The notes under the pieces: model-generated
What the model saw: the letters and a program-made list of their open reading frames with translations, nothing else
Told to the model about the DNA's origin: nothing
Databases searched by the model: none
Part shown: piece after piece, positions 3,001 through 39,779 of the stretch
Position numbering within the stretch: the stretch's first letter is position 1
Layout: each line of letters starts with the position of its first letter
Program-made: the position numbers and the translations under genes
Source: a virus
Lineage: Duplodnaviria > Heunggongvirae > Uroviricota > Caudoviricetes
IMG/VR virus record: IMGVR_UViG_3300045988_149282
Location: 32,001-96,000 of that record
Reading direction: 5' to 3' (one strand)
DNA length: 64,000 nucleotides

Positions 3001-6000
3001 CGAAAAAGGCCGATCAGTCGGCAGTCACTACGCTGACAGGTCGGGTAGAGAAGACGGAGTCCGGTCTGACGGCGGCGAACAGCAACATTACGTCGCTTAG
3101 CAGCTCTCTGAGCCAGCAATCCAAACGCGGCGCTAATCTGCTTCCTGATGGCACTTTTGAAAGCTACGCGGTTGGCCATAATCTATCAAATAATCGCGTT
3201 ATCGTTACCACTGATGACTCTCACGGTGGAAATAAGTGCATCCGTGTGACGCGTCCGAACGACTACAACGCCAACGCAACAGATAACAGCGATAACCATA
3301 TTTTTAGCGGATTTCAGGTTCGCGATAACGCAGTGTTCTACATGGAGTGCTGGGTTAAGCTGGATGCCAATAGCACAGCCATGGCCGAGAACACGCAGAT
3401 CTCTATCGGTTTGTCGCTCCAGTATCAGGATAACTCGTGGCAGTGGCCGGCAGTAACTAAAGCTGCGAAAGATCTGTCTACAGCTCAATGGACGAAGGTT
3501 TCTGGTTACCTGAAATCAACGAAGAGCGGTATTAAGCAGGCAATGGTGAGGATTTCTATTCCTAACGTTAGCAGCGTTAAGGCGGGAAACTCATTCCTTA
3601 TTGATGACCTGGTCATTACCGAAGTAACTGATGCCTACAATGCGCAAAGTACAGCAGATGCTAACGCCAATGCGATTTCGACACTGGACTCGACCGTTTC
3701 CCAACAGGGCGACCAGATCACCAGTCAGGGTAACAGCATCACCAAACTGACAAATGACCTGGCAACGACCAATAACAACGTCAGTAAAAAAGCGGATCAG
3801 AGCGCTTTAAGCGTGTTGTCCGGGCGCGTCGATCAAACAGAATCGGGCTTATCCTCTGCGAATAGCAGTATCACTGCGCTTAATTCATCTGTACGCGCAG
3901 GGAATGCGACAAGTGGCGATTTGATTAGCAACCCGACATTTGACCCAGAGTTTAGTCAGATGGGCTTCACTGTGGTTCCCAGCTCGTCTGAGGGCGTGCC
4001 AGCCAATTGCCCATACGCTTATGTTGCACGCATTGCGGCTCGCGACCATCACCCAAATTTTGCTGCTATTCCGGCGACATTGGGGGATGTCTATGAAATG
4101 TCTGCTCTCGTCGCGTGTGGCACTGGCTCCGCTGATTTCAACCTGTATCTCGGAACCGCAACACGGCCAAGCGGCAGCGTGGGCGCGCCTCTGTCATCTG
4201 GCGGCAACCGCAAGGCGTCGGCCACATGGCAGCGAGTAACCTGGCGTTTCAAAATTACTCAGGGGATTGTCGATCGCGGCTTCTTCCGTCCATTCCTGCA
4301 AATCAACCAGTCCAGCCCGTTCGGCACCGTCTGGTATGTGACCGACTGGCATCTGCGGAACGTAACCGACTCCTCCAAAGTTCAGGATTCTCTCGATGCT
4401 ACGGCGAAAGCGGTTGATTCGCTGACCTCTACGGTAAATCAGCAGGGGGAGAATATCTCCAGCATTGGTACACGTACTACCAATCTTGAGAATAATTTGA
4501 GAACAACAAATGCAAACGTTGCTCAAAAAGCGGACGCCAATGCTCTGACGGCACTGACCAACCGTGTTACCCAGACCGAAAAAGACATTAACTCAACGAG
4601 TTCTTCTGTCACGAATCTGAACAACAAGGTTGATGCAATTTCTGTCGGCGGTACAAACCTGATCAAGAACTCCGGCGATATGACCGGCTGGTCGAACGTT
4701 GTCAGCGATACGTATCGTGGTAACGCGGTAATTGGCGCAACTGTAAAAGCCGGCTCCGGTTACAGGGATTTGCGGGAAATCACGCTTGAGTCGCCGGTCG
4801 ATGCAGGTGAGTACGTTTACAGCTTCTATGCGAAAGGCGGTGTTGCTGGCCAGATTATGACGGCGTTCTTCTACAATCCGAACACTACAACGTCTATCGA
4901 GACCAGCCAGGGTGCGAAGGGTAACAACAGTGATGGCCGTGCGCAGTTCACGCTGACCACTTCATGGGCCCGCTATTGGGTTAAGTGGAAACAGACACCT
5001 ACCACGAGTACCAAGCGCCTGATTCTGTGTCGTATCGAGAGCAATACCTCCAAAGACCAGACGGTGTACATCAACAGTCCGAAGTTTGAGGTAGGTAACG
5101 TTGTTTCCGACTGGAACGAGTCTCCGTCTGATAGTGCCAGTGCGTCGGCTGTGGACTCGCTGACAACGAAAGTGAATCAGCAGGGCACTTCCATTAGCTC
5201 TATCGGAAATCGCACCACATCGTTGGAAAACGGGTTATCGACAGCTCAAAACAACATTGCCAAGAAGGCTGATGCTTCTGCATTGCAGGATCTCCGGAAC
5301 ACGGTGACATCTCAGGGTGATGATTTAACCGCGGCGAACAGCAGCATTACCAGCCTGCATGCCTCGATGAACCGTCGCACTGTGTTTACTGTCACTGCAC
5401 GGGGTAATGGCAACAGCGTTACCCATGGGGTGTTTGATGAAAGCGGCAAGAATCTGTTTACCCCTGGTCGCAGCTGGGCGCTGGTCACTTTTGCAAAACA
5501 CAGCGACGGATCAACGGTGATTGCGACCTCCAAAACATACGATGTCTTTGGCAGCGCGAATAATGGCGCCACGATGTCGGCTGATATCGAGGCACTGGCC
5601 AGTGGGACTTACGTTTGCGTCCTGACATTCGATGAGCCAACTGGCAACCGAGGTAAGGTGTTGTCTGCCCTGGAATCTCTTGGTGGCACTTCCGAAGTCG
5701 TTAACTCTCTGCCGTATCGTGGCGCCTACATTCTCCTTGGCCGCAAAGGTATGAAGCCGGGCGATGGTCTGGAACTGCGTGCGCCAACCGGTGGCGACGG
5801 CACCGCCCACATTTCGACCTCAGTCGAGTTTGTGAACGGGGTAATGATGGGGCTGGGCGCCGCTGGTGGTGTGATGATGAAGGCTGATGCGAACGCATCT
5901 GCAATTACCACGCTCCAGAATACAGTGAAGACCCAAGGGGATAATATTGACTCCCTGAGCTCCTCGACAACAGCGCTGGAAAACAGCCTTGCGTCCAGTA

Positions 6001-8456
6001 ACGCCAGCGTGGATGCAGCAAGCCAGATCCCCGGTAACCTGATCGTAAACCCGTCTTTTGAGCGTGGTACGGAGGGCTACACTGGTTGGAGCGGTATTGC
6101 CACGGTGGCAACGCTGCAGGTTCCACATCTTGGCACCAAAGCCGCCAAACTAGCGGCGGGTGGTTCTGCAGGCGTGGGCCAGAAGATCTCCTTCAAAAAG
6201 GATCGGTCGTACAAAATTGGTATTTGGGCAAAGCAGGACCCTAATACCACCATTCAGTCGACCGACAACACAAAATTCCGTGTGGCTGACGGTACTGGCC
6301 TGATTGCAAGTAAGGTTTATGGTCCGTTCACCTCGAACTGGCAGGAGGTGTCATGGACATGGAAGGCGACAAAGGATGTCCTTGCTGACGTTCAGTTCAC
6401 TGCTTTCTTGTCAGCCGGCGCGATGTACTTTGATGATTTTTACGTCGTCGATGTGACCGACTCAGTTGAAACTCAGGCGAACTCGAGTGCGATCACGAAG
6501 CTCGATAGTCGTGTGACCAAGACAGAGAATGACATCACCAGCCAGGGCAGCCAGGTTACGCAACTTAAGAATGACCTTGCTACCACAAACACAAATGTTT
6601 CGAAGAAAGCGGATGCAGCTGCGTTAACGGCATTAACGAACCGCGTCACGCAGAATGAGAAAGAAATTGGAACCCAGAGCAGCCAGACAACTTCGCTCAA
6701 AAACTCTTTGAGCACTGTTCAGGCAATGGGAAGCAACCCGTGGTTTGATGGTTCTCTGGAGACGTACTCCGAAAACCAGCAGATCAGCGGCTCGCGCGCG
6801 GTCGTCGTCAGCTCTCAGAAACGAAGCGGAACGAAGTCGTTGCGTGTTTCCCGCGGCGCCGGTGAGGGCGGAAACAGCGATAAAACCATCGGTAAGTGGA
6901 TTGCTCTGCGTGAAAATGCGGTATTCCGCATTGAACTCTGGGCGATGATGCCGGCAGATCAGTCGCCATCATCCGGGTGGTCAACGCTCGTTGGTTTGCA
7001 GACCCAAAACGCTGCCAACAACAATAACTGGCCGACGGCAATCACTATCAATGAAGCCGCATTGGGTGCAAGAGGCGCATGGAAGAAATTCACCGGTACG
7101 CTCCGTGTAGCCGCTGGCCACACTCGCGGCGCATTTTGGGTATCTACCCGCGGCACAACTGGCACTGGTACACCGGGGTATGATCTGTATATCGATGACG
7201 TTGTTGTCACCGATATCACCGACGCAAAAGAGGCTCAAGATTCGGCTAATTCGAACGCATCCGCGCTCACCAGCCTTACCTCACGTGTTACCAATGTAGA
7301 AGGGCAGGTGACATCCCAGGCGTCTCAGCTGTCCTCTTTGACGTCCCAGGTGAATGATGCGTCTTCGAAGGTTGATCAGATGGCGCAAACCATCACCAAC
7401 AACGAGAAAACGCAGTCGTCGCTGAATACCAGCTTGCAGTCGCAAATTGATGCGCAGGCATCGGCAAACATCAAGAACCAGACGGAGTTGAATAACGCCA
7501 CCACTTCGATGGCGGCAATTAAATCAACTCAGCAGACTCAGGCCACAACGATTAGTGCACTGTCTCAGCAGCAAACGAATTTAACGGCCCAGGTAGGAGG
7601 CCAGTCAGCCGAGCTGCAGGAGCTGAAGAAAACGGTTGTTGAAAACGGCAACGTTAACAGCACCTGGATGGTCAAAATGGAAACCAACAGCAACGGTAAA
7701 AAGTATGCTGCTGGTATAGCTTTAGGTATCGATGGCAAAAATTTGCAGAGCCAGTTTCTGGTTCAGACTGATCGCTTCGGCTTAATCAACACCTCTAACG
7801 GGAATACGACTACACCTTTCGTTATCGAAAATGGCGTTGCGTATATTAATGCCGCTGTCATTAAAGATGGCTCGATCACCAATGCGAAAATTGGAGGCGA
7901 AATCCGTTCTGACAATTTCGTTAATGGTTCAAATGGCTGGAGAATTGGAAAAGACGGTAGTTCACAGTTCAACAATGCGATATTCAGAGGTCATATTGAA
8001 GCGCGCAGTGGTACGTTCAAAGGAACCCTGGAAGCTCAAAACTTTATTGGTGATATCGCTGTAGCTCGGCGTTATGCGGGTTTATCGTTCCGTCGTAACA
8101 ACACCGTACAGCGTGATGGTCGTTACCAGAACCGCGGATACGGTATGACTATTGTGCTAAGTTGCACCCTGATATATCAGGTTACTGGGGGGAATGAGGA
8201 TCGTAACGGTTATATTGTTGAAATGACATTTAACGTTGGCGGTCAGGAGGCAACTCGCAGTTTCCCGATCAACCCGCGAATGAATATGGGCTCCTACTCG
8301 ATGGAGTTTCGTTTTGCAGCGGATATTCCAGGCAACTATGACAACGTCCCGTTCTTTGTAAGAGCACGTGGTCGGGATGCTACTTGGAACTACCAGTGTT
8401 ATGTAGAAAACATCACTGCCACTGCTTTCCGTACAAACAGCAACTCATTCAGCTAA
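1..8456 (+). CDS. Giant tail fiber protein, 5' end probably outside the window; coiled-coil segments alternating with carbohydrate-binding-module-like domains
   Basis: Single reading frame ending at TAA 8454-8456 and still open back to nt 3 with the same repeat pattern. About 8 recurrences of heptad-like A/S/T/Q-rich stretches followed by an N-x-S-F-E-R-G-x-E-G-W type signature. C-terminal fiber-tip-like region. Confidence 0.8.
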   Translation, partial: GLIYQEKNARITADAAEASARESLQTEFNRNKASVAEELHTLSTEQASQASKITGLQTSLGQKADASAVQTISQKVEEQGNTLKSQGAALSTLDNRVGSVESGVSANSKAITGLQSTVTQQDKTLSSQSESITTLNNSLSDIQSDTDTAKSNPSNLLVNASFERDLAGWSAGNSVSNVIKASAPHSGSKILVCAAGTVQITQSVSVVEGRTYKLSSFVRCTTDAVISSPGNNKLRIGAATLLKEIPIRPENLPKDETWKEVSDTWKATLTGKVDVSIMSSLKTGSQYFDDVGFVDVTDALAIEANASATNALTSRVSSVEGTITSQGQQITSMQNSIKNKADASAVTNLANRVTAAENQISSQSQSITSLSNSLDNANADADASKAIIGNMLKNNSFERGFEGWEYVGWTLLEAQNPKSGKYIIQAGKLASGGDSGCNQTIELQAGKTYRIGAWVRKSADFAINNAGNNKISLRNADLTPIKDIPITGAGLSTNWALISGEYTPAKTASVVVSLRASVASGYMYLDDVFCVDVSNEKAIDATSNALSTLNSTVTQQGKDITSNSNSITSLSNQMVNGRQNMWVRSVYNVQLANNTTEPTFSDINGKAPISIDEVPDAAKLDFASAGSYVIAHYKAFVKVNADTTITMAPGSRVFDDTGAVYVNGVRVAFGNASWNTVSFDLKAGWSTVEFLVNQWTGQAYINLGFKLSEKVAQLNSALGMNALSNAISAVTSNVSTVGDRVTSTSQSVTDLRNSLEQTNANLANKADAQALSTLQNTVSKQGDTISSQGNSITNLNNTLTAARNSGDNLIPNYDFLQGATAWDIQYPAGVAFGNFGDGKAGVKLNRTTTTSPGIFSNNNKPLPLNGQRKYRVVVKAKGVSGAMNMLIRRQNKIGQTDSNYEDKNVTLTSEWQTITWETGLTASNADGQNFKLYAHPANAEIWVDTFKVFDITDEVKIKANSDALSTLSSTVTQQGDKITSQGNSITKLTNDLEAADANIAKKADQSAVTTLTGRVEKTESGLTAANSNITSLSSSLSQQSKRGANLLPDGTFESYAVGHNLSNNRVIVTTDDSHGGNKCIRVTRPNDYNANATDNSDNHIFSGFQVRDNAVFYMECWVKLDANSTAMAENTQISIGLSLQYQDNSWQWPAVTKAAKDLSTAQWTKVSGYLKSTKSGIKQAMVRISIPNVSSVKAGNSFLIDDLVITEVTDAYNAQSTADANANAISTLDSTVSQQGDQITSQGNSITKLTNDLATTNNNVSKKADQSALSVLSGRVDQTESGLSSANSSITALNSSVRAGNATSGDLISNPTFDPEFSQMGFTVVPSSSEGVPANCPYAYVARIAARDHHPNFAAIPATLGDVYEMSALVACGTGSADFNLYLGTATRPSGSVGAPLSSGGNRKASATWQRVTWRFKITQGIVDRGFFRPFLQINQSSPFGTVWYVTDWHLRNVTDSSKVQDSLDATAKAVDSLTSTVNQQGENISSIGTRTTNLENNLRTTNANVAQKADANALTALTNRVTQTEKDINSTSSSVTNLNNKVDAISVGGTNLIKNSGDMTGWSNVVSDTYRGNAVIGATVKAGSGYRDLREITLESPVDAGEYVYSFYAKGGVAGQIMTAFFYNPNTTTSIETSQGAKGNNSDGRAQFTLTTSWARYWVKWKQTPTTSTKRLILCRIESNTSKDQTVYINSPKFEVGNVVSDWNESPSDSASASAVDSLTTKVNQQGTSISSIGNRTTSLENGLSTAQNNIAKKADASALQDLRNTVTSQGDDLTAANSSITSLHASMNRRTVFTVTARGNGNSVTHGVFDESGKNLFTPGRSWALVTFAKHSDGSTVIATSKTYDVFGSANNGATMSADIEALASGTYVCVLTFDEPTGNRGKVLSALESLGGTSEVVNSLPYRGAYILLGRKGMKPGDGLELRAPTGGDGTAHISTSVEFVNGVMMGLGAAGGVMMKADANASAITTLQNTVKTQGDNIDSLSSSTTALENSLASSNASVDAASQIPGNLIVNPSFERGTEGYTGWSGIATVATLQVPHLGTKAAKLAAGGSAGVGQKISFKKDRSYKIGIWAKQDPNTTIQSTDNTKFRVADGTGLIASKVYGPFTSNWQEVSWTWKATKDVLADVQFTAFLSAGAMYFDDFYVVDVTDSVETQANSSAITKLDSRVTKTENDITSQGSQVTQLKNDLATTNTNVSKKADAAALTALTNRVTQNEKEIGTQSSQTTSLKNSLSTVQAMGSNPWFDGSLETYSENQQISGSRAVVVSSQKRSGTKSLRVSRGAGEGGNSDKTIGKWIALRENAVFRIELWAMMPADQSPSSGWSTLVGLQTQNAANNNNWPTAITINEAALGARGAWKKFTGTLRVAAGHTRGAFWVSTRGTTGTGTPGYDLYIDDVVVTDITDAKEAQDSANSNASALTSLTSRVTNVEGQVTSQASQLSSLTSQVNDASSKVDQMAQTITNNEKTQSSLNTSLQSQIDAQASANIKNQTELNNATTSMAAIKSTQQTQATTISALSQQQTNLTAQVGGQSAELQELKKTVVENGNVNSTWMVKMETNSNGKKYAAGIALGIDGKNLQSQFLVQTDRFGLINTSNGNTTTPFVIENGVAYINAAVIKDGSITNAKIGGEIRSDNFVNGSNGWRIGKDGSSQFNNAIFRGHIEARSGTFKGTLEAQNFIGDIAVARRYAGLSFRRNNTVQRDGRYQNRGYGMTIVLSCTLIYQVTGGNEDRNGYIVEMTFNVGGQEATRSFPINPRMNMGSYSMEFRFAADIPGNYDNVPFFVRARGRDATWNYQCYVENITATAFRTNSNSFS

Positions 8457-11525: not shown

Positions 11526-11715
11526 TATCTGTAATCGAGTAAATGCCGTCATCCAAGTTCACCGAACTTGATTATTCTTCACCGAACTTCACTCAAGGTA
11601 ATCTTGAATCATCCTGCTTAATGATGTAGATTTAACCAACAGCTGACGATGTCGTCAGCCGTTAGACCTGAAAAGGTGCCGCAATGACACTTGTGTTAAC
11701 GGCTAAGGTGGATAT

Positions 11716-12135
11716 ATGCTAAATTATCATGACAATACGCGTTCTATGCAGACGATCCGCACCAATACTGCGGTTATCGACAGCTTTCCTATGCGTATTC
11801 ACAACAGTGAAGACGCAGTAGAAGTGCGACGTATGTTGTGCCGTGAATCAGCTAACCGCCAGCACTTCATCGTCACTTTTAAGAGCGATGTGGCGCGTGC
11901 CGAAAAGATCTCTAATTCTACGTCACTGGTTAAACCGTTGGCCGAGGTTGTCACTAACGGTAAACGAACCTCTTTTGTTTTAGATGTTGCTGAACAATAT
12001 CCTGACTTGAAGTGTTTAGATCGTGATATTTCTTCACGAATCAAACAAGTTGTAGAGTCTTTTATGAAGAAATTCTGTAAAATCGATGATATGGAACCAT
12101 CAACGGCACAGAATACTTCATGGCACCATCTCTAA
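11716..12135 (+). CDS. Hypothetical protein (139 aa)
   Basis: GGTGGA ribosome-binding site 6 nt before ATG; no recognisable motif. Confidence 0.6.
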   Translation: MLNYHDNTRSMQTIRTNTAVIDSFPMRIHNSEDAVEVRRMLCRESANRQHFIVTFKSDVARAEKISNSTSLVKPLAEVVTNGKRTSFVLDVAEQYPDLKCLDRDISSRIKQVVESFMKKFCKIDDMEPSTAQNTSWHHL

Positions 12136-12893
12136 TTGGTCAGGCGAACAGATTAATCCCTGAAATAGAAGACTACAGCAAGGTCTTGTCTGAAATGCCG
12201 AGAGCGACGAGAATTATCGCTCTCGGTGAGTTCTATTTTATCTCCCGAGGTTTCGATCTAATTCGATTTACCGAATACGAGCTTGTTGATTCGGCCTATG
12301 AACGCTGTATTGTTGGCGAGTGTCTTGAGTCATGTGATCCTGATTACCAAGAGCAGGAAGTTAAGCGACTCAAACGTGCTGGTTACACACCTCTTGAGAT
12401 AGGAGCAGAAATTGAATCCTACAAGTTGCATGTGGGGCAGCCAGTCCAAACAGTCTTCCGCGTGGCCTACTGCGAGTTTCCAATCAAGGATAAATCTGGA
12501 GTAAAAGTCAGCGCCAAGCAGATTAGAGGGGTTTTTACTCATGCTGATTATATGGGATTAGGCATCGCAAGTTTTGCTTACCTTTATCTCGTAGATAAGT
12601 ATCAGTACTTGGTTTGCGATACGTTACAGACGGTAAAAGGCGCAACTCTTTGGGCTGTGAGTATGCGCAAACATGGACTGGTCGAAATTTACGATACGAA
12701 GAACGAAAATTTTATAGAGGAATTGGGTGAGGATGCCTGTGGCGTAAGTGGTTTTATTCCGTGGGATATCGGTAAGTCTGACGGAGGCCAGATGCGAAGA
12801 CGTGAAGAGTGGGGGACTAATAAAATCAATCTCACCCCAGGTGCTTGTACTCATATAGTGAACATTCTGAGTAAACGATCTATGAATCAATAA
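12120..12893 (+). CDS. Hypothetical protein, possible GNAT-like acetyltransferase fold in C-terminal half
   Basis: Overlaps upstream gene by 16 nt (operon-like). Segment DYMGLGIASFAYLYLV...ATLWAVSMRKHG resembles GNAT motif A/B by eye only. Start uncertain (alternative ATG 12195). Confidence 0.5.
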   Translation: MAPSLIGQANRLIPEIEDYSKVLSEMPRATRIIALGEFYFISRGFDLIRFTEYELVDSAYERCIVGECLESCDPDYQEQEVKRLKRAGYTPLEIGAEIESYKLHVGQPVQTVFRVAYCEFPIKDKSGVKVSAKQIRGVFTHADYMGLGIASFAYLYLVDKYQYLVCDTLQTVKGATLWAVSMRKHGLVEIYDTKNENFIEELGEDACGVSGFIPWDIGKSDGGQMRRREEWGTNKINLTPGACTHIVNILSKRSMNQ

Positions 12894-12915
12894 ACCCGCT
12901 ACGGCGGGTTTTTTG
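12893..12915 (+). terminator. Rho-independent terminator
   Basis: CCCGC-tacg-GCGGG hairpin followed by TTTTTT. Confidence 0.7.
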
Positions 12916-12993
12916 TTATTAAGCCCACCTATGTACCTATCATTAAACCTTTACACCGCAGCCGTAGGCATTTAGGCTATATCACATATAAGA

Positions 12994-13006
12994 AAACAAG
13001 TTGTTT
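12994..13006. promoter_or_regulatory. AAACAA-N-TTGTTT palindromic site upstream of parA-like gene
   Basis: Perfect 6+1+6 palindrome; same motif recurs upstream of at least five other genes. Confidence 0.45.
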
Positions 13007-13041
13007 CAGACGATAATTATATACGCAAAGGGAACTCTCCA

Positions 13042-13710
13042 ATGACCAAGATCTTTGTGGTTGGCGGCACAAAGGGCGGGCCTGGCAAATCCACCGTTGC
13101 CCAGCAAATTGCCGTTTGCCTGAAAGTCAAAAAGAAGAAGAAGGTTTATATTACCGATATAGATATTCAGCGCACGACAACGAGCTGGTGTGAAGACCGT
13201 CGACAGAACGAAGACCTTGAGCTGATTCCTTTTGCATACGTTCAGGATGACATCATTAAGCACCTAAAATCGCTTCAGGGTAGAGCTGAGTTTGTAGTGG
13301 TAGATGCTGGTGGCTTCGACTCCGAAATTCAGCGACAAGCGATGCTGATGGCTGACGTTATCATTATCCCGCTGCGTCCTAAGCGTCGTGATTTGAAATC
13401 TTTACGTGACATCGATCCTATTATCGACAATGTTCGCAATGTAAACGATAAAGTGAAGGTCCGCGCGGTCATGAACCAGTGCCCGGCTTTGCCATCACAA
13501 GTGTCTCGCATTCTGGCGGCTAAAGAGATTGTTGAGACGTTTGGCATCGAGTCTGCGCCAGTCAATCTATATAACCGCAACGTCTATGATGATGCGGAAG
13601 AGTCTGGTCGCTCTATCTTTGAAATGACCGGTAGCGAGCGCGACAAAAAGGCGGAAGCCGAGTTTGAAGAATTTGTAGATTATCTGTTGAGTCTGGAGGA
13701 AGAAGAATAA
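13042..13710 (+). CDS. parA: ParA/ParF-type partition ATPase
   Basis: Deviant Walker A GGTKGGPGKST at N-terminus; 222 aa, small ParA class without N-terminal helix-turn-helix. Confidence 0.85.
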   Translation: MTKIFVVGGTKGGPGKSTVAQQIAVCLKVKKKKKVYITDIDIQRTTTSWCEDRRQNEDLELIPFAYVQDDIIKHLKSLQGRAEFVVVDAGGFDSEIQRQAMLMADVIIIPLRPKRRDLKSLRDIDPIIDNVRNVNDKVKVRAVMNQCPALPSQVSRILAAKEIVETFGIESAPVNLYNRNVYDDAEESGRSIFEMTGSERDKKAEAEFEEFVDYLLSLEEEE

Positions 13711-14069
13711 TGTCCATGAAAATGGGTGACCTAGCAAAGCGCAAAGAGCCTGATGCACCGGCTAAGAACACAACTCCTTTGCGCCAACCAGTCAGACCAC
13801 AGGGACGCCCGACTCGTGGCAAAGAGAAAATTAAAAGCCGCACAATGTCACTGGAGGACGAATACTTCGAACTGCTGGAGATGATGAAGTTCATCCCTCG
13901 CTTCGAGAAGTTCACTCGTTCTGACGTGATTCGAGCAGCCATTTTCCATCTGGCAGAGAAGTCACCGCAGGAAATCGAGGACATCGTGAAATTGAATGAG
14001 GCGATCACCGCTGCCGATGTCACGATGCGTACCGATGAAATCAAACGAGAGTTGATGAAGAAAGGTTAA
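13710..14069 (+). CDS. Partition centromere-binding protein, ribbon-helix-helix (ParG-like)
   Basis: Start overlaps parA stop (TAATG); basic disordered N-terminus followed by a ribbon-helix-helix-like segment. Confidence 0.55.
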   Translation: MSMKMGDLAKRKEPDAPAKNTTPLRQPVRPQGRPTRGKEKIKSRTMSLEDEYFELLEMMKFIPRFEKFTRSDVIRAAIFHLAEKSPQEIEDIVKLNEAITAADVTMRTDEIKRELMKKG

Positions 14070-14074
14070 AAATC

Positions 14075-14105
14075 ATGCATTGGCGCGTACATTGCGCCAA
14101 TGCAT
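14075..14105. repeat. Perfect 12-bp inverted repeat ATGCATTGGCGC-N7-GCGCCAATGCAT between convergent genes
   Basis: Read directly; either a bidirectional terminator or a protein-binding site such as a partition centromere. Confidence 0.5.
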
Positions 14106-14121
14106 AACTACAGTGTCAGCT

Positions 14122-14889
14122 TTATGCCGCGCTAACACTATGTTCAGTCCTAACCACCCCAACCTTCACAAAAGGGCTACCGTAGCTTGGTGGCTTCTTG
14201 ATTAATTTGCCTACATACAGTTTTCTAATATGCTCATCGGCTATTCTGCCAACAAATTCATAACGTTTTGTGTCGGGGCCAAGAGCTATATCCCTTGTAA
14301 AGTACTGCTGAGAACCGGCTTTGACCCAGCATTCAATCTGATAAACTTCCATTATCAGCCCACCATATGTAGCGTAGGCATATTTGAGATTCTCGTCTCT
14401 TGGAACCTTTGCCCATACGCCACGCGTAGCTTCATATAATGCCAGAGCGGACATTCCTGACTTGTAGGTGCTGTTTAGCAGGAAGGCAAGACCGGCGTGC
14501 TCAGGAGCAATTTCAGTTTCCTCTTGCAGCACTAAGTGATGGTAGGCGTCCAGTGATATTCTGCCCATCATGGAACCACTTCCTCGTACCTTATTCGTAA
14601 GCTCTCCGACCCCCATAAGGTCGATGCATGTCGCCTCAACAAGTTTGGCTGTGGTTTCATCCATACCATGACGAAGTATATCTATGCCTAATTTTTTATT
14701 AGCCAAAAGTTCTTTGATCCGCATGGATTTGGGAGAGTCATCGGGATACTTGATGTGATCGAGACAACGAGTCGATTTGCCTTTTCCTATGTAAAACGGT
14801 CTTTTCATCTTGTCTTCTGTATCATAGAGACAGTAAACATAGTATTTAGCCTTATCCAATGATCTCGCGTATACCGATAAATCGTCCAT
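14122..14889 (-). CDS. GIY-YIG-like nuclease domain protein (homing-endonuclease-like or defence-type nuclease)
   Basis: N-terminal YVYCLYD...PFYIGKGKSTR matches the GIY-(10)-YIG-R signature; about 160 aa C-terminal domain of unknown type; antisense to flanking operons. Confidence 0.55.
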   Translation of the reverse strand: MDDLSVYARSLDKAKYYVYCLYDTEDKMKRPFYIGKGKSTRCLDHIKYPDDSPKSMRIKELLANKKLGIDILRHGMDETTAKLVEATCIDLMGVGELTNKVRGSGSMMGRISLDAYHHLVLQEETEIAPEHAGLAFLLNSTYKSGMSALALYEATRGVWAKVPRDENLKYAYATYGGLIMEVYQIECWVKAGSQQYFTRDIALGPDTKRYEFVGRIADEHIRKLYVGKLIKKPPSYGSPFVKVGVVRTEHSVSAA

Positions 14890-15000
14890 TATTGCATCTC
14901 TTTGCTACTGACTAATGCGTTCTATTTTACACATAAGTTTTTAATCAATTTAACAGGCTCAAAGTGTAGAGCTTCTGGGCGTCTAAGACGACAAGTTATG

Positions 15001-15055
15001 CCTGCTTCTGTATATATAAATAATAAGTAACTTATTAAATATATACGGAAGCAGG
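15001..15055. repeat. 55-bp composite palindromic element, copy 1 (CCTGCTTCTGTATATAT ... ATATATACGGAAGCAGG)
   Basis: About 17-bp arms around an AT-rich centre containing ATAAGTAACTTAT; a near-identical copy lies at about 60132-60188. Confidence 0.6.
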
Positions 15056-15171
15056 TCTTTTAAAAGACACCACCAGAACAACTCCCTTCCGTTTCCACTT
15101 CCAAAAACTGCCACCAGTCGCTATCATCCGCTCATTGTGATAAGTAAGTAACTACCTACCAGGTGAGCCAC

Positions 15172-15912
15172 ATGAGCCAAATCTTTTTCGATACCATCGA
15201 CAACGACCAGTACGACTTCATGACAGAGTGGAATACCGCTGTTATGGACAAGTGGGTCGCTGAAAACATTGGTTTGTCGCGCTGTAAAGACGAGGCTGAA
15301 CTCTTCGAGACGAAGTGGTTTGATTACCGCGACATGCATCCTCTCATGGCCACCTGTCTTTTTACGGAGGCATACAAACGTCAGTACTCAAATATCATGC
15401 TGACGCACGGTCGCGAACACTTTGAAACAGCTCCGTTCACCACCGGGTTAAAACGCCTGCCTTATCAGGAGTTGTCGACTGCCAATAAAACGTCGCTATG
15501 GAAAGCACGCCAGTTTGCGGATCGCTATTGCTGCTCATACGACTACTTTATCTCCACCGTTCTTTCCGCAGCTGCACGACGGCTGTGGGACAAGCTGCCG
15601 CGCCCACAGCATTTATGGCAGCCAGAACTGATTGAGATATTTGAAGAGAAATTAGCCAGACGCGCAACAACCCGTCTGGATGACTCTCTGGTTAGCTTTA
15701 AGCATATGGGAGACATGCAGTTCAACCCGATTCAGGAAAGCTATTTTGAGTGGATTCTGGAGCGTTTGCGCACCATCCCTCGCAGCAAGCGCATACGCGC
15801 AATTTTCTCCGCTATCTGGCTAATGGAAATCGTTCCAGAGCGCCTTATTTCCGCCCACTTTCCAGAAGAACTGGAAGAAGCACGGCGGTTTATTGATCCC
15901 CTATCTAATTAA
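15172..15912 (+). CDS. Hypothetical protein
   Basis: AGGTGA ribosome-binding site then ATG 15172 (ORF track opens at GTG 15163); no motif recognised; upstream of helicase. Confidence 0.55.
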   Translation: MSQIFFDTIDNDQYDFMTEWNTAVMDKWVAENIGLSRCKDEAELFETKWFDYRDMHPLMATCLFTEAYKRQYSNIMLTHGREHFETAPFTTGLKRLPYQELSTANKTSLWKARQFADRYCCSYDYFISTVLSAAARRLWDKLPRPQHLWQPELIEIFEEKLARRATTRLDDSLVSFKHMGDMQFNPIQESYFEWILERLRTIPRSKRIRAIFSAIWLMEIVPERLISAHFPEELEEARRFIDPLSN

Positions 15913-15923
15913 CTAATACTAGA

Positions 15924-15936
15924 AAACAATTTGTTT
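15924..15936. promoter_or_regulatory. AAACAA-T-TTGTTT palindromic site upstream of helicase gene
   Basis: Perfect palindrome 20 nt upstream of the conserved AAAGGAAAGCAC-ATG leader. Confidence 0.45.
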
Positions 15937-15955
15937 AAAAAACAAAGGAAAGCAC

Positions 15956-17296
15956 ATGACCGAACTTTGCCATACAGGACGCGGGCTGTCCGAAGAGTTT
16001 GATGAAGATTTCCAGAACAGACTGACGGCATATTTTTGTCGTGATCACGAGTTTCTTACTCGTGCGGGAGATCTGGTTGTGCCTAGCCAGTTTGCCAATG
16101 CGGCCAATGCCATATTGGTTAATATGGTTTCGGGCTATTACCGTATGTACAAGAGCGCGCCCTCTTCATCTGCAATTCTGGATATGCTTAAGCGTGCGAA
16201 ACGCGATAAGACTATCCGTGAGGAACTATTCGCCGATGTTGTTGCTGCGTTTAAGCGCATTCTTGCAGAAAAATTGTCCGATACCTCGTACATGGTTGAC
16301 CAGGTATCAACCTTCGCAAAAAGTGTAGCGTTTGATGATGCTCTGATTAAGGCTGCTGAACTGAAAGAGAAAGGCGACTTTCAGGGGGCGATGGCAATCA
16401 TGGCCAAGGTTCAGCAGATTGGATCGAACGAAGCGACCGGAATCTATGACTACTACACCTCCGCAAGTGAGCGATTGAAAGCGCGTGAATATGAGGCTTC
16501 AGAGGAGTATGTACCAAACAGTATTACAACTGGACTCCCTCTTCTCGATAGGTTGCTGTACCAAAAAGGCTGGGCAAAGCGCGAAATGGTGCTCTTCATG
16601 GGGTTCGCTAAATCCGGTAAATCGACCGCAATGGGTGAGTTTTCCATAAACGCAACGCTTGCTGGCTACAATGTTCTGTATCTCTCGCTGGAGGTTCACA
16701 CCACCATTTTATCCGACCGTTTTGATGCAAGATTGTCGGAGACAGAAATGTCCAAGCTGGTGGAACGGCGCGATGAGGTTCATCGTAAGTTGGCAGAGTT
16801 GGGAGCCACGAAGGGGATTGGTAGTTTGTGGGTGGTTGAGCGTCCGTCAGGAAGTATGTCACCGGCAGATCTGGACCGTATGCTTAACAGCATGAAAGCC
16901 AACGGCATGGTGCCTGACATGGTTGTTGTCGACTACGCAGATTTGATGCGTGCCAGTTATGACCTTCGTGATGATCGCGCCAACATTCGTAGCATCTACA
17001 CCGATTTACGTGCTCTTTATGACAAGCATAACGTTGCTGGGATCACGGCATCGCAGACAAACCGTGAAGGTGGCGCGTCAGAAGTTGCCACAATGATGCA
17101 CGCTGCCGACAACATCGAAAAAGTACGTATTGCTGACCTGGTAATAACGATCAACAAAACCGAAGAAGAAGAAGCGAAAGGAGAGGCTCGTCTCTACTTT
17201 GCCGGTTCACGTAACCAGCAGGGAGGGATCAGCATTCGCGTTAAACAAAACCTCGAACAAATGCGCTTCATTGAGCGAATCTTAGACGTTACCTAA
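15956..17296 (+). CDS. DnaB-like replicative DNA helicase
   Basis: Walker A GFAKSGKST and Walker B-like VVVDYADL in a RecA-fold C-terminal domain. Confidence 0.8.
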   Translation: MTELCHTGRGLSEEFDEDFQNRLTAYFCRDHEFLTRAGDLVVPSQFANAANAILVNMVSGYYRMYKSAPSSSAILDMLKRAKRDKTIREELFADVVAAFKRILAEKLSDTSYMVDQVSTFAKSVAFDDALIKAAELKEKGDFQGAMAIMAKVQQIGSNEATGIYDYYTSASERLKAREYEASEEYVPNSITTGLPLLDRLLYQKGWAKREMVLFMGFAKSGKSTAMGEFSINATLAGYNVLYLSLEVHTTILSDRFDARLSETEMSKLVERRDEVHRKLAELGATKGIGSLWVVERPSGSMSPADLDRMLNSMKANGMVPDMVVVDYADLMRASYDLRDDRANIRSIYTDLRALYDKHNVAGITASQTNREGGASEVATMMHAADNIEKVRIADLVITINKTEEEEAKGEARLYFAGSRNQQGGISIRVKQNLEQMRFIERILDVT

Positions 17297-17302
17297 AAAA
17301 TA

Positions 17303-17325
17303 AGCGTGGAGAACACCTCCACGCT
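17303..17325 (+). terminator. Hairpin after helicase gene
   Basis: AGCGTGGAG-aacac-CTCCACGCT; weak U-tract. Confidence 0.4.
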
Positions 17326-17443
17326 TGATTCATTGGTGAAACAACTTTTCTTTTGCCAAACCACAAAAGAAAAACACATGAACCTTTATATTATATCAAC
17401 ATTTAGGTTGGTCACAATATTGCCTGTTAAAAGTGGAATTATC

Positions 17444-18559
17444 GTGAGCGAGCTGAAAGAGCTAATTACCGAATTAGATTTTGAACAATGGTTGGATACT
17501 GAAGGTATCGTTTATCGACGTGGAGGCGTGAGTACTCGCGGTCGTGAAGTGAATATCAAGGAGTGTCCGGTATGCGGCAGCTCCAACTGGAAGGTATATT
17601 TCAATCTGACCAGTGGCGTCGGTAAATGCTTCGCTGGTGATCATCCCGAAGAGATTCAGTTCAATAAGCTGGTCTTCCTCAAGCACTACAGCGGCAAATC
17701 ACGACGACAGTTCGAGGAATATGTGCAGAACGCCCTTCTTTCCCAGGGGTGGGCACCAAAGAAAGAAGAGCTAGTGCTTGCAAGCACAGTCGAGTTAGAG
17801 GAGCCAGTTGCACTCCCTCGTCATTACGAGCTTCCTATAGATGGCCGTCTTCCAGACTATCTGGTTGAACGAAACATATCGCCTGAAATGGCAAAGTATT
17901 TTGACCTACGATACTGCGTCGAAGGCAAGCACGCCTATGTAGATCCGTATACAGATCAGGTTAAAGGACAGATATTCGATATGCGAATACTGATACCGGT
18001 TTACGATCTGGATGGGGTAATGAAGACATTTCAGGGACGAGACATTACCGGTACAGCAGAACGCCGCTACCTCTTTCCTATGCAACTTCCAGCTTCAGGT
18101 AAGTTTCTCTACAACGGCCATAATGCAGTCGGCAAACAGACTGTAGTTGTCTGTGAGGGGGCGTTCGATGTTATGGGGGTTAAACGAGCTATTTTTGACG
18201 AAGAAACATTACGTGATTACGTGGAACCAATAGGAACGTTCGGGATGCATCTATCTGGTAACACCACTCAGGATGCAGAAGATCAGTTAGGCGCGTTCCT
18301 GACGCTCAAGGCGCGTGGGTTACGTAATGTGATCATGATGTGGGATAGTGAAAAGCAAGCTATACGCAACACGATGGCCGCAGCCAGGCGACTGACCAGT
18401 ATTGGTCTTAATGTCAAAGTGGCGTGTTTGGGCGAGGAAGGACTCGACCCGGGCGATGCAACGCCAGAGCAAATCATCAAAGCCTATTATCGGGCAAAAC
18501 CGTATACCAAACAGTTGGAGTTGCAAAGCAAGGTTTTGGGCATTAAGGCTCTATCATAA
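17444..18559 (+). CDS. DNA primase (zinc-ribbon plus TOPRIM-like)
   Basis: CPVCGSS...KCFAGDH zinc-binding motif and VVVCEGAFDVMG acidic core. Start uncertain: GTG 17444 with GTGGA ribosome-binding site is preferred; ATG 17378 possible; ORF-track start 17306 lies inside the upstream hairpin. Confidence 0.7.
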   Translation: MSELKELITELDFEQWLDTEGIVYRRGGVSTRGREVNIKECPVCGSSNWKVYFNLTSGVGKCFAGDHPEEIQFNKLVFLKHYSGKSRRQFEEYVQNALLSQGWAPKKEELVLASTVELEEPVALPRHYELPIDGRLPDYLVERNISPEMAKYFDLRYCVEGKHAYVDPYTDQVKGQIFDMRILIPVYDLDGVMKTFQGRDITGTAERRYLFPMQLPASGKFLYNGHNAVGKQTVVVCEGAFDVMGVKRAIFDEETLRDYVEPIGTFGMHLSGNTTQDAEDQLGAFLTLKARGLRNVIMMWDSEKQAIRNTMAAARRLTSIGLNVKVACLGEEGLDPGDATPEQIIKAYYRAKPYTKQLELQSKVLGIKALS

Positions 18560-22085: not shown

Positions 22086-22863
22086 AAACATCATGATAAG
22101 TATTTACTTACTTATCTTTTATGTATAAGATGACTTTGTTTTCGTTGAGACGCGACTGTTTGAACTTAAATACAAGTGCAAACGAAGAAGTCTATCTGGC
22201 AGTAGCCTAATAAGCCAAACACCAGCGAGGTCAGTTTCCAGCCTCGTTACCGAAATGGGACACACTGAGCGAGTGTGATTGCAGAACGCAGGAGGGAACA
22301 TTCATGTTCCCTCCGATGAAGTAACAGAATGGGCGGTTGGTATATTTTCAACTCCATATGACTCCCGGATTCTTAGCCTCTGACCGCCCATCCTGTTACG
22401 TCATTTTGTTCAATTATGTCGTTTATACTGGGTTAAAAAGCGGCGACGTAGCCCGGCTGGTATGGTTAGCCAGCACACAACGTTGAGGCCATTACATTTT
22501 TATCAATTCTAAGGTTCTATTCACAGAGATACCGGCGAGCGTTGATATGTAACATGTTGGGCAAACATTCAATCGGAGTAGTGGCCTCAACGTTGTGAAG
22601 ACAGGATTGTTGTGTAGGTTTAACCACTGTTGCCATTGGTGCCTGTTTTCACAACAAATGATTCCATACATCACATTGTATAAATTACAAAGTAGGTGCT
22701 GTCCTCAGAAACATCATCTACTTAAAGATTTTGCCTTCTACTATTGAGCGAAGTCGAAAGCGTCTGGCACTAACGAAAAGTGCAAGTAGCGGTGCGTTTC
22801 CTGGCAGAAACTAAACCGTCGCGATTGGCACTGTTGAGTAATAAATACTGGCAGTGCTGAATT

Positions 22864-22938
22864 GATGGTGTAGCTCAGCGGTAGAGCAGTTGGCTGTTAA
22901 CCAACTGGTCGGTGGTTCGAATCCACCCACCATCGCCA
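22864..22938 (+). tRNA. tRNA-Asn (anticodon GTT)
   Basis: Manual cloverleaf: acceptor GATGGTG/CACCATC, D-arm GCTC-AGCGGTA-GAGC, anticodon loop CTGTTAA, T-arm GGTGG-TTCGAAT-CCACC, encoded CCA. Confidence 0.85.
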
Positions 22939-22943
22939 ATTTA

Positions 22944-23030
22944 GGGGAGTTAGTCCGTAGAGGTAGCGGTGTAGACTGTAAATCTACTGTCATGGCGACT
23001 CGGGTGGTTCGACTCCATCACTCCCCACCA
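22944..23030 (+). tRNA. tRNA-Tyr (anticodon GTA), long variable arm
   Basis: Acceptor GGGGAGT/ACTCCCC, anticodon stem-loop GTAGA-CTGTAAA-TCTAC, long variable arm, T-loop TTCGACT, encoded CCA. Confidence 0.8.
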
Positions 23031-23034
23031 AATT

Positions 23035-23110
23035 GCCGGTTTAGCTCAGTTGGTAGAGCGCCTGCCTTGTAAGCAGGATGTCAGCGGTTCGAGTCCGTTA
23101 ACCGGCACCA
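23035..23110 (+). tRNA. tRNA-Thr (anticodon TGT)
   Basis: Acceptor GCCGGTT/AACCGGC, D-arm GCTC-AGTTGGTA-GAGC, anticodon loop CTTGTAA, T-loop TTCGAGT, encoded CCA. Confidence 0.8.
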
Positions 23111-23404
23111 ACATAATATTGAGAACATTGGCGTAACGGGTTCATATCCCAATTTATGAATATAATGTTGCGTTGCAGCGTGACAACCAGTGTTCTCAAC
23201 ATTGTGGTGAATGCACAGGCTGATGTGCGACGTAGAAGCAAGCGGATGAACTGCCTGAAGGCCGCTAACGTAGGCAATGCCGGAGATCAGCACCGGCCAT
23301 CACAATTTGGCTCTCTTGCAACAGCATAACGCTGAAATACGTCCAACCTGGTGCGGTCTGATCACCCGCCGTTAGCTCCACGAAACGGAGCACACAACAC
23401 AATT

Positions 23405-23491
23405 GGAGAGTAGGGAGCATGGTGCTCAAGCGGTCTTGAAAACCGTCCCATTGTGCAAACGATGATGGTTCGATTCCATTACTCTCCGCCA
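23405..23491 (+). tRNA. tRNA-Ser (anticodon TGA), long variable arm
   Basis: Acceptor GGAGAGT/ACTCTCC, anticodon stem-loop GCGGT-CTTGAAA-ACCGT, long variable arm, T-arm GATGG-TTCGATT-CCATT, encoded CCA. Confidence 0.7.
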
Positions 23492-38407: not shown

Positions 38408-38673
38408 TGCTTAAATCGATTATCAATGGCGCTACAACCACCCCTGCCCAACTGGCAAAAGAGATTGTCTTTTATCACGGTGAGTACGCTGTCATCGCAC
38501 TGCCGTCAATTCTAGGCGCTGCCGGAATGAAAGCGACAGATCGCGAGTTTGGATTAGTCAGCGAGCAGGTCGTAAAAATCCTCGCTCGTGTATCCAGACT
38601 CCTTAACCACGATGCGATTATATTCGACGAATCCGCCGCTTTAAAACGAATCAACGAAACAAAAGGAGCCTGA
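38407..38673 (+). CDS. Hypothetical small protein (88 aa)
   Basis: ATG 38407 overlapping the nuclease stop. Confidence 0.45.
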   Translation: MLKSIINGATTTPAQLAKEIVFYHGEYAVIALPSILGAAGMKATDREFGLVSEQVVKILARVSRLLNHDAIIFDESAALKRINETKGA

Positions 38674-38675
38674 TC

Positions 38676-39749: not shown

Positions 39750-39753
39750 ACAC

Positions 39754-39779
39754 AAGGCGTCCACAGGACGCCTTTTTTA
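39754..39779 (+). terminator. Rho-independent terminator
   Basis: AAGGCGTCC-aca-GGACGCCTT followed by TTTTTAT. Confidence 0.85.

What the first reader, a model, noticed from the sequence alone, without database searches (positions are those of the whole stretch)
14122..14889. Antisense GIY-YIG-like nuclease gene wedged between the partition operon and the replication genes
The N-terminus carries a GIY-(10)-YIG-R signature. The gene runs opposite to both flanking operons and is bounded by strong palindromes at 14075-14105 and 15001-15055. Free-standing GIY-YIG genes in phages are usually homing endonucleases, but GIY-YIG nucleases also serve as defence effectors. The 160-aa C-terminal domain is unassigned.
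Basis: partly seen in the sequence, partly recalled or inferred. Interest (0 to 1): 0.5.

Follow-up and report, generated by a model that had tools for sequence, protein, structure and literature searches.

The report
Phage-plasmid-borne CMoRE-type restriction nuclease
The gene is a divergent member of the known PD-T4-3/CMoRE family of single-gene restriction enzymes that cut phage DNA carrying modified cytosines, and it sits as a swappable cassette in a defence-gene slot of an SSU5-like E. coli phage-plasmid, so it is a useful but largely ordinary find.

Summary
The ORF at 14122-14889 (-), 255 aa, is real. [quoted passage not shown]

- **Sequence evidence:** PADLOC PD-T4-3 profile 1.3e-23 over nearly the full length. 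The solved CMoRE chains 9U7U and 9U75 match at 2e-15, 32% identity.
- **Catalytic residues:** Y17, Y19, Y33, R41, E85 and N99 are invariant in 61 homologues.
- **Difference from CMoRE:** the acidic autoinhibitory loop is 5 residues shorter and keeps only "DD".

The window is an SSU5-like E. coli phage-plasmid. The gene lies in a 933-bp cassette (14068-15000) that fills a multi-allelic slot between the stop codon of the small ParB-like gene and a conserved backbone palindrome (15001-15055). Relatives carry DUF2971/PDC-S31, a KAP NTPase/PDC-S49, or unknown genes there.

The left palindrome is the cassette's own terminator. The right palindrome belongs to the backbone.

A homing endonuclease is not supported. 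The inferred function is exclusion of T-even-like phages with hydroxymethylated or glucosylated cytosine. PD-T4-3 in SSU5 phage-plasmids has already been reported from DefenseFinder screening. Verdict: new member of a known kind, modest interest.

The parts
14122..14889 (-). [quoted passage not shown] Identical to WP_000342417.1, annotated 'LEM-3-like GIY-YIG domain-containing protein'.
   Evidence: ORF. PADLOC PD-T4-3 1.3e-23, residues 11-231 against profile 11-238 of 256. PDB 9U7U/9U75 at 2e-15. 32% identity over 237 aa. Foldseek E about 5e-11, probability 1.0. RefSeq annotation.
14578..14853 (-). [quoted passage not shown] The alpha2-alpha3 loop (residues 46-60) is shortened and poorly acidic.
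14155..14553 (-). C-terminal domain (about residues 113-245), homologous to the CMoRE modified-cytosine-sensing domain.
14075..14105 (-). Cassette-borne hairpin (12-bp stem, 7-nt loop) followed by UUUUU on the minus strand. Probably the intrinsic terminator of the nuclease gene, and possibly a bidirectional stop for the parA operon.
   Evidence: Absent from relatives with other cassettes, each of which has a different hairpin at this position.
14890..15000 (-). 111-bp AT-rich leader that travels with the gene, presumed to hold its promoter and ribosome-binding site. No consensus sigma-70 site was found. The best candidate by eye is TTAAAT-18-TAAAAT, about 35 nt upstream of the ATG.
   Evidence: Inside the variable segment. 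Promoter scan found 0 sites. Sequence read.
14068..15000 (.). The exchangeable 933-bp cassette as a whole. The left break is at the stop codon of the small ParB-like gene and the right break is at the backbone palindrome.
   Evidence: BLAST breakpoints against Cyrano, CP054387 and SSU5. In pLAO18 the cassette is 98.1% identical (gene 99.2%) while the flanks are 80-84% identical. Found in 107 of 5426 complete E. coli genomes, always on plasmids.
15001..15055 (.). Conserved backbone palindrome (arms CCTGCTTCYGTATATA) that forms the right edge of the slot. It is not part of the nuclease cassette.
   Evidence: Conserved in all four relatives, including SSU5. Second copy at 60133-60187. Fold z -7.9.
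13710..14069 (+). Small ParB-like gene downstream of parA (119 aa, phrog_5111). Its stop codon is the left edge of the slot (TAA here, TGA in relatives).

Best explanation

**Mechanism, inferred by homology with the characterised E. coli enzymes.** The C-terminal domain binds DNA containing 5-hydroxymethyl- or glucosyl-hydroxymethyl-cytosine, possibly also other bulky base modifications. The N-terminal GIYxY-YIG domain then cuts that DNA. Unmodified host and phage-plasmid DNA is spared. An incoming T-even-type phage genome is therefore destroyed without killing the cell, which protects both the host and the resident phage-plasmid.

**Shown here:**
- Family membership by sequence and by predicted fold for both domains.
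- Conservation of the catalytic residues.
- A single-gene cassette with its own terminator.
- Location in a multi-allelic slot that in relatives holds other known or candidate defence genes.
- Transfer of the cassette between diverged backbones.

**Inferred, not shown:** nuclease activity, substrate specificity, oligomeric state, expression in the plasmid-prophage state and the protection phenotype.
For: **Family membership.**
- PADLOC PD-T4-3 HMM 1.3e-23, covering 87-89% of both protein and profile.
- phmmer against the CMoRE crystal-structure chains 9U7U/9U75: 2e-15, residues 12-230. 32% identity.
- Foldseek top four hits are the PD-T4-3 structures, E about 5e-11, probability 1.0, about 260 aligned columns.
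- Y17, Y19, Y33, R41, E85 and N99 are invariant in 61 homologues.

**Experimental basis for the family.** PMC12923530 gives the crystal structures, 5hmC/5ghmC-specific cleavage, and T2/T4/T6 protection without abortive infection. PMC12366544 shows a 48%-identical homologue that degrades T4 DNA but not T4-GT7 DNA, and also Mu DNA.

**Genomic context.**
- The slot is variable. Other alleles match DUF2971/PDC-S31 and KAP NTPase/PDC-S49.
- 91 of 264 E. coli SSU5-like plasmids carry this cassette in place.
- In pLAO18 the gene is 99.2% identical while the flanks are 80-84% identical.
- DefenseFinder already reports PD-T4-3 in SSU5 clade J/K phage-plasmids of E. coli and Shigella.
Against: - Identity to the characterised enzymes is only about 32%, and no member of this sub-lineage has been tested.
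- The acidic autoinhibitory lid, a named hallmark of CMoRE whose removal makes that enzyme toxic and less specific, is reduced. The H45-L61 segment is 15 residues against 20, and it has 'DD' instead of four consecutive acidic residues. Only 9 of 61 relatives have a 4-acid run.
- The sensing domain carries a subfamily-specific conserved insertion (N139-M146, 'NSTYKSGM') that is absent from CMoRE. Specificity may therefore differ.
- The global TM-score to the crystal structures is low (0.39). This is presumably due to domain orientation, but I could not superpose the N-terminal domain separately.
- No consensus promoter was found.
- Chromosomal homologues are not in obvious defence islands.
Confidence: 0.8

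Rival explanations
1. It is in the same family but has a different substrate or control logic. Because the acidic lid is reduced and the sensing domain carries its own conserved insertion, this sub-lineage recognises a different modification. Candidates include Mu-type carbamoylmethyl-adenine, arabinosyl-hmC or other hypermodified bases. Alternatively it is kept safe by another means such as low expression or oligomerisation.
For: The loop is 5 residues shorter with only 2 adjacent acidic residues, and this is typical of the subfamily. The conserved 'NSTYKSGM' insertion is absent from CMoRE. The 4A loop mutant of CMoRE gains activity on unmodified DNA and is toxic. PD-T4-3Capno already shows plasticity, acting on T4 and Mu.
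Against: The core of the sensing domain is conserved: W159, Y183, W188, F212, G214, Y225 and G227 align with identical CMoRE residues. In CMoRE, 5hmC is read by a main-chain contact, so side-chain divergence says little. Liu et al. state that only 'most' family members have the loop.
Confidence: 0.25
2. It is a free-standing GIY-YIG homing endonuclease that has inserted itself between the small ParB-like gene and the replication genes, and spreads by cutting relatives that lack it.
Against: The C-terminal domain is the CMoRE sensing domain, not a NUMOD, HTH or zinc-finger DNA-binding module. In none of the 52 listed rows that span both flanks and none of the 10 loci inspected is the slot empty. 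It holds unrelated cargo on either strand, which is cassette exchange and not homing. Close homologues (50-79% identity) are solitary chromosomal genes across Gammaproteobacteria.
Confidence: 0.03
3. It is a non-specific or abortive-infection nuclease or toxin, for example a plasmid-maintenance or suicide effector that degrades any DNA once activated.
For: The autoinhibitory acidic lid is missing. A toxin-antitoxin pair (KacT/DUF1778) occupies the neighbouring variable slot in relatives.
Against: The cassette has no partner antitoxin or sensor gene. The characterised family members act by direct defence and not by abortive infection. The gene is stably carried in more than 100 complete E. coli genomes.
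Confidence: 0.05
4. It is a housekeeping DNA-processing nuclease of the phage-plasmid's own replication or repair, in the manner of UvrC or Slx1.
For: It lies next to DnaB-like helicase, primase, ligase and DnaE genes. The GIY-YIG domain is closest to UvrC outside the CMoRE family.
Against: About two thirds of E. coli SSU5-like plasmids lack it and carry unrelated genes in its place. SSU5 itself lacks it. It is on the opposite strand with its own terminator.
Confidence: 0.02

Closest known systems
CMoRE / PD-T4-3 (E. coli ECOR68, APEC O1, O157:H7; PDB 9U7U, 9U7Z, 9U75, 9U8D; Liu et al., Nat Commun 2026, PMC12923530; first found by Vassallo et al. 2022)
   Different: Only about 32% identity. 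The alpha2-alpha3 'acidic lid' is 5 residues shorter, with DD instead of DDDE/DDDD. A conserved 4-residue insertion (…STYKSGMS…) sits in the sensing domain. L96 of the dimer interface is an invariant Cys here. It is carried on a phage-plasmid and is untested experimentally.
PD-T4-3Capno (Capnocytophaga homologue; Rodriguez-Rodriguez et al. 2025, PMC12366544)
   Same: A divergent family member shown to be a modification-dependent nuclease. This illustrates that distant homologues keep the function in E. coli.
   Different: It is 48% identical to PD-T4-3. It also cuts Mu DNA.
Other type IV restriction enzymes that fuse a PUA-like reader (EVE, YTH, ASCH, SRA) to a nuclease, such as VcaM4I, McrB-N and the PvuRts1I/AbaSI class
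   Different: The nuclease is GIY-YIG, not HNH, PD-(D/E)XK or Vsr-like.
Defence hotspots of temperate phages and satellites (P2/P4 hotspots; P1 accessory loci)
   Same: A fixed backbone position with sharp breakpoints, where unrelated single-gene or small defence cassettes replace each other and move between diverged backbones.
   Different: Here the slot lies between the partition operon and the phage-type replication genes of SSU5-like phage-plasmids. In the papers I searched I did not find this particular slot described.
GIY-YIG homing endonucleases (I-TevI, SegA-G)
   Different: No DNA-binding C-terminal modules, no intron or target-site logic, and a different C-terminal domain.

Membership tests
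PD-T4-3 / CMoRE type IV restriction endonuclease | Significant, near full-length match to the family profile | tested here: met
   PADLOC PDLC04031: 1.3e-23, 81.9 bits, residues 11-231 of 255 against profile 11-238 of 256.
PD-T4-3 / CMoRE type IV restriction endonuclease | Collinear homology to the solved CMoRE proteins across both domains | tested here: met
   phmmer 2e-15 to 9u7u_A and 3.5e-15 to 9u75_A, residues 12-230. BLASTP 32% over 237 aa. Foldseek E 4.5e-11, probability 1.0, 259 columns.
PD-T4-3 / CMoRE type IV restriction endonuclease | 'GIYxY-YIG' motif with three tyrosines (Y17, Y19, Y31 in CMoRE) | tested here: met
   Y17, Y19 and Y33 align to them (PDB chain numbering is paper numbering + 5). 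All three are invariant in 61 homologues.
PD-T4-3 / CMoRE type IV restriction endonuclease | Catalytic Arg and Glu of the GIY-YIG fold (plus the metal-site Asn) | tested here: met
   R41, E85 and N99 are invariant. They align to GNR, VEA and LTN of CMoRE.
PD-T4-3 / CMoRE type IV restriction endonuclease | Inserted, negatively charged alpha2-alpha3 autoinhibitory loop with four consecutive acidic residues (present in 'most' members) | tested here: not met
   The segment between invariant H45 and L61 is 15 residues against 20 in CMoRE. The window has 'PDDSP'. Only 9 of 61 subfamily members have a 4-acid run. The authors describe this feature as frequent, not universal.
PD-T4-3 / CMoRE type IV restriction endonuclease | C-terminal modification-sensing domain of the CMoRE fold | tested here: met
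   [not shown]
PD-T4-3 / CMoRE type IV restriction endonuclease | Single-component system with no cognate methyltransferase or partner gene | tested here: met
   The 933-bp cassette holds one gene. Chromosomal homologues are solitary.
PD-T4-3 / CMoRE type IV restriction endonuclease | Tetramer (dimer of dimers) needed for function; interface residues V92/L96 and the beta1-beta2 loop | tested here: inconclusive
   V92 aligns to V84 (same residue). L96 aligns to C88, which is invariant in this subfamily. No multimer model could be made.
PD-T4-3 / CMoRE type IV restriction endonuclease | Cleavage of 5hmC/5ghmC DNA but not C/5mC DNA; protection against T-even phages without abortive infection | not testable with these tools
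   Requires plaque assays and in vitro digestion.
Pfam PF22945 LEM-3-like GIY-YIG domain | Score above the gathering threshold | tested here: met
   30.1 bits against a cut-off of 27, residues 32-104. This is a domain-level assignment only.
GIY-YIG homing endonucleases (I-TevI / Seg type) | C-terminal sequence-specific DNA-binding modules (NUMOD, HTH, Zn finger) joined by a linker | tested here: not met
   No such Pfam hit. The C-terminal domain is the CMoRE sensing domain.
GIY-YIG homing endonucleases (I-TevI / Seg type) | Insertion polymorphism with an empty, cleavable target allele in relatives | tested here: not met
   In none of the 52 listed rows that span both flanks and none of the 10 loci inspected is the slot empty. 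It holds unrelated genes of 0.8-1.9 kb.

The most novel reading that the evidence does not exclude
The phage-plasmid enzyme may represent a 'lid-less' CMoRE sub-lineage. It has a short, weakly acidic alpha2-alpha3 loop and its own conserved insertion in the reader domain. It would discriminate self from non-self differently from the published enzymes, or read a different set of DNA modifications.

The CMoRE reader domain was described as a new fold, but it may in fact be a very divergent PUA-like (EVE/YTH/ASCH) module.

In addition, the slot between the small ParB-like gene and the backbone palindrome of SSU5-like phage-plasmids may be a previously undescribed defence hotspot. Its three unannotated alleles would then be new defence genes: a 352-aa protein, a 225-aa protein, and a 246+136-aa pair.
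Probability: 0.3. Interest if true: 0.5.

Novelty: new member of a known kind. Interest (0 to 1): 0.3.

Why it matters
About 5% of complete E. coli genomes (264 of 5426) carry an SSU5-like phage-plasmid, and roughly a third of those carry this cassette. If the enzyme works like CMoRE, these elements give their hosts resistance to T-even-type phages. Such phages are common in phage-therapy cocktails, so the gene is a practical marker for predicting phage susceptibility.

The reduced autoinhibitory loop makes this natural variant a convenient test of the published 'safety-catch' model.

The multi-allelic slot offers a short list of unannotated genes that may be new defence systems, judged by their location.

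None of this changes the current picture. The family, its mechanism and its presence on SSU5-group phage-plasmids are already in the literature.

Tried and rejected
- **NCBIfam:** no match.
- **PHROGs:** only families of unknown function (phrog_5356).
- **Sigma-70 promoter scan, 13600-15400:** no site, fewer than in shuffles. The only terminator-like hit, at 15303, is unrelated. The tool missed the 14075-14105 hairpin because its U-run starts 3 nt after the stem on the minus strand.
- **Full-length Foldseek:** low global TM-score (0.39) and rmsd of 16 A. I attributed this to the flexible linker and re-ran the C-terminal domain alone, which gave rmsd 2.5 A.
- **Homing-endonuclease reading:** rejected on domain architecture and allele structure.
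- **The 15001-15055 palindrome as a cassette boundary or recombination site specific to this gene:** rejected. It is conserved in all relatives whatever their cargo, and it is duplicated at 60133.
- **Chromosomal contexts of three homologues (Providencia, Shewanella, Salmonella):** no defence-island signal either way.
- **NILS69 paper:** I looked for where its PD-T4-3 is located, to see whether the phage-plasmid type had been tested. No information was found.
- **Unannotated alleles of the slot:** no Pfam or PADLOC hits.

Full report
**1. What is there**

The window is part of an SSU5-like phage-plasmid of E. coli. Bases 13000-17500 are 99.8% identical to plasmid pSCMY1. They are 98.7-99.1% identical to the phages PhiR41_1 and CMS-2020a, and about 82% identical to Salmonella phage SSU5.

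The ORF named in the finding exists exactly as described: 14122-14889, minus strand, 255 aa. RefSeq annotates the same coordinates as 'LEM-3-like GIY-YIG domain-containing protein', WP_000342417.1.

It is convergent with parA (13042-13710) and a small ParB-like gene (13710-14069). It is divergent from a 249-aa ORF (15163-15912) that is followed by a DnaB-like helicase, primase, ligase and DnaE. The plasmid initiator RepB is about 28 kb away, at 43359-44573.

**2. The motif and the palindromes**

The conserved residues are Y17-V-Y19, Y33-I-G35, R41, E85 and N99, and all are invariant in an alignment of 61 homologues of 50-78% identity.

Both palindromes are present and fold far better than shuffled sequence. 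They play different roles.
- The 14075-14105 hairpin lies inside the variable cassette. On the minus strand it is followed by GAUUUUU, so it reads as the intrinsic terminator of the nuclease gene.
- The 15001-15055 palindrome is conserved in Cyrano, CP054387 and SSU5 whatever gene precedes it. It recurs at 60133-60187, again about 105 bp upstream of a plus-strand gene. It is a backbone element.

**3. Family assignment**

| Test | Result |
|---|---|
| Pfam PF22945 (LEM-3 GIY-YIG) | 30.1 bits, cut-off 27; N-terminal domain only |
| PADLOC PD-T4-3 profile | 1.3e-23; residues 11-231 against profile 11-238 of 256 |
| phmmer against PDB sequences | only 9U7U/9U7Z and 9U75/9U8D; 2e-15; residues 12-230 |
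| BLASTP against 9U7U sequence | 32% identity over 237 aa |
| AF2 model, full length | pLDDT 87.3, pTM 0.82 |
| Foldseek against PDB | top four hits are the PD-T4-3 structures; E about 5e-11; probability 1.0; about 260 columns |

The global TM-score in the Foldseek hit was only 0.39. The two domains are joined by a linker that is disordered in the crystals and of low confidence in the model. The separate model of the C-terminal domain resolves this.

The 'unassigned 160-aa C-terminal domain' is therefore the CMoRE modification-sensing domain.

**4. What the family does (literature)**

PD-T4-3 was recovered in a functional screen in E. coli. It has been renamed CMoRE.
- It is a single-protein type IV restriction enzyme. 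It binds and cuts DNA containing 5hmC or glucosyl-5hmC, but not C or 5mC.
- It protects against T2, T4 and T6 by about 5 logs without abortive infection.
- It cuts at CN11/N9G and works as a tetramer.
- It carries a 'GIYxY-YIG' motif (Y17, Y19, Y31) and an acidic alpha2-alpha3 loop. This loop acts as a safety catch: replacing its four acidic residues with alanine raises activity, allows cutting of ordinary DNA and is toxic (PMC12923530).
- A 48%-identical Capnocytophaga homologue degrades T4 DNA but not T4-GT7 DNA, and also cuts Mu DNA (PMC12366544).
- In a clinical E. coli isolate, the native PD-T4-3 restricts Tevenvirinae.

**5. Membership test**

Met:
- Near full-length profile match.
- Collinear homology to the solved proteins.
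- The three tyrosines.
- The catalytic Arg and Glu (plus Asn).
- The sensing-domain fold.
- Single-gene organisation.

Not met: the acidic lid. Between invariant H45 and L61 this protein and 59 of 61 relatives have 15 residues, where CMoRE has 20. The window protein has only 'DD', and just 9 of 61 relatives have four acidic residues in a row. Liu et al. say 'most', not all, members have the loop. I therefore treat this as a sub-lineage difference and not an exclusion.

Inconclusive: the tetramer interface. V92 corresponds to V84, and L96 corresponds to the invariant C88.

Other points:
- The sensing domain has a conserved insertion (N139-M146) with no counterpart in CMoRE.
- Activity and specificity cannot be tested here.
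- The family is large. 1781 clusters at 50% identity match at E <= 1e-3 and 632 match at E <= 1e-10. Most of the 150 listed are two-domain proteins of about 245-260 aa.

**6. Genomic setting**

Comparison with relatives gives sharp breakpoints. Homology ends at 14067, at the stop codon of the small ParB-like gene (TAA here, TGA elsewhere). It resumes at 14991-15001, at the backbone palindrome. The 933-bp segment between them is a cassette holding a terminator, one gene and a 111-bp leader.

The slot is multi-allelic:

| Allele | Example |
|---|---|
| DUF2971 protein matching PADLOC candidate PDC-S31 | Cyrano, SSU5 and many E. coli, Enterobacter and Citrobacter plasmids |
| 567-aa KAP P-loop NTPase matching PDC-S49 | CP054387, E. 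coli O104:H4 2009EL-2050 |
| 352-aa unknown protein, minus strand | p15ZF15-2-1 |
| 225-aa unknown protein, minus strand | pF404-2 |
| 246-aa + 136-aa unknown pair | p009_B |

The slot was not empty in any of the 52 listed BLAST rows that span both flanks or any of the 10 loci inspected.

Frequencies:
- 264 of 5426 complete E. coli genomes carry the parA-to-primase backbone, always on plasmids.
- 91 of those have this cassette in place.
- 107 genomes carry the cassette overall.
- The surplus includes IS-flanked fragments of the phage-plasmid embedded in large virulence or resistance plasmids, such as NZ_CP062843.

In pLAO18 the gene is 99.2% identical to the window while parA, the 249-aa ORF and the DnaB-like helicase gene are 80-84% identical. 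The cassette has therefore moved recently between diverged backbones, most simply by homologous recombination in the flanks.

A second variable slot lies just upstream of parA. It holds two unknown ORFs here and a KacT/DUF1778 toxin-antitoxin pair in Cyrano and p4_0.2.

**7. Interpretation**

The best explanation is a phage-plasmid-borne type IV restriction endonuclease that excludes phages with hydroxymethylated or glucosylated cytosine. This protects the host and the resident element.

The homing-endonuclease reading fails on three counts:
- Domain architecture.
- The absence of an empty target allele.
- The distribution of close homologues as solitary chromosomal genes.

A toxin role or a role in the element's own replication is unlikely. 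There is no partner gene, and two thirds of close relatives do without this gene.

The main open point is whether the lid-less sub-lineage has the same specificity and safety mechanism as CMoRE.

**8. Novelty**

The family, its structure and its mechanism are published. A 2025 preprint lists PD-T4-3 among DefenseFinder hits in SSU5 clade J/K phage-plasmids of E. coli and Shigella.

What this analysis adds:
- The explicit structural assignment of both domains for the phage-plasmid variant.
- The reduced acidic loop.
- The exact cassette boundaries.
- The multi-allelic nature of the slot.

I rate it a new member of a known kind, with interest 0.3.

Noticed in passing
window 15001-15055 and 60133-60187: The 55-bp AT-rich palindrome (arms CCTGCTTCYGTATATA) occurs twice in the window, each time about 105 bp upstream of a plus-strand gene start. 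None of 100 shuffles gave 4 arm matches. The arms are conserved in SSU5, Cyrano and CP054387 while the centre varies. It is probably a backbone operator, terminator or insulator. Its function is unknown.
   Followed up: partly
window 11560-12990 (ORFs 11716-12135 and 12120-12893): A second variable slot lies between the lysis genes and parA. Here it holds two overlapping ORFs of unknown function (phrog_2594, phrog_3307; no Pfam or PADLOC hit). Cyrano and p4_0.2 carry a KacT GNAT toxin plus a DUF1778 antitoxin at the same place. The two slots reassort independently.
   Followed up: partly
[not shown]
   Followed up: partly
L015:1331-2389 (-), L017:1109-1786 (-), L018:1104-2247 (+): Three alternative occupants of the same slot have no Pfam or PADLOC match: a 352-aa protein (phrog_22329), a 225-aa protein, and a 246+136-aa pair. 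By position they are candidate new defence genes.
   Followed up: partly
window 14070-14110; L002 2569-2600; L004 2569-2600: Each allele of the slot begins, right after the stop codon of the small ParB-like gene, with its own different hairpin of 11-12 bp stem. The hairpins share a GGCGY...RCGCC core: ATGCATTGGCGC, AAGAGAAGGCGT and ATATTGGGCGT. It is unclear whether this is only a terminator requirement or a recombination-related feature.
   Followed up: no
L005 (NZ_CP062843.1) 6649-8200; L006 (NZ_CP107722.1) 4691-5158: Fragments of the phage-plasmid are embedded between IS elements in large non-phage plasmids. One fragment holds the small ParB-like gene, the nuclease and the start of the 249-aa ORF, in a plasmid that carries CFA/III pilus genes. 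The other holds only the ParB-like gene plus the first 158 bp of the cassette, truncated by IS26.
   Followed up: partly
phage records MK994515 (Serratia phage Moabite) 6439-7125 and relatives: Jumbo phages of Serratia and Pectobacterium encode full-length, 28-30%-identical homologues that cover both domains. They are annotated as GIY-YIG or homing endonucleases. They may be CMoRE-like enzymes used by phages against competitors.
   Followed up: no
window 37702-40041 (+); 22862-23465 (+); 43359-44573 (-): From the annotation of the 99.8%-identical pSCMY1: a 779-aa ORF annotated as a LAGLIDADG homing endonuclease, a tRNA cluster (Asn, Thr, Ser), and the RepB plasmid initiator, which lies far from the phage-type replisome genes.
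   Followed up: no
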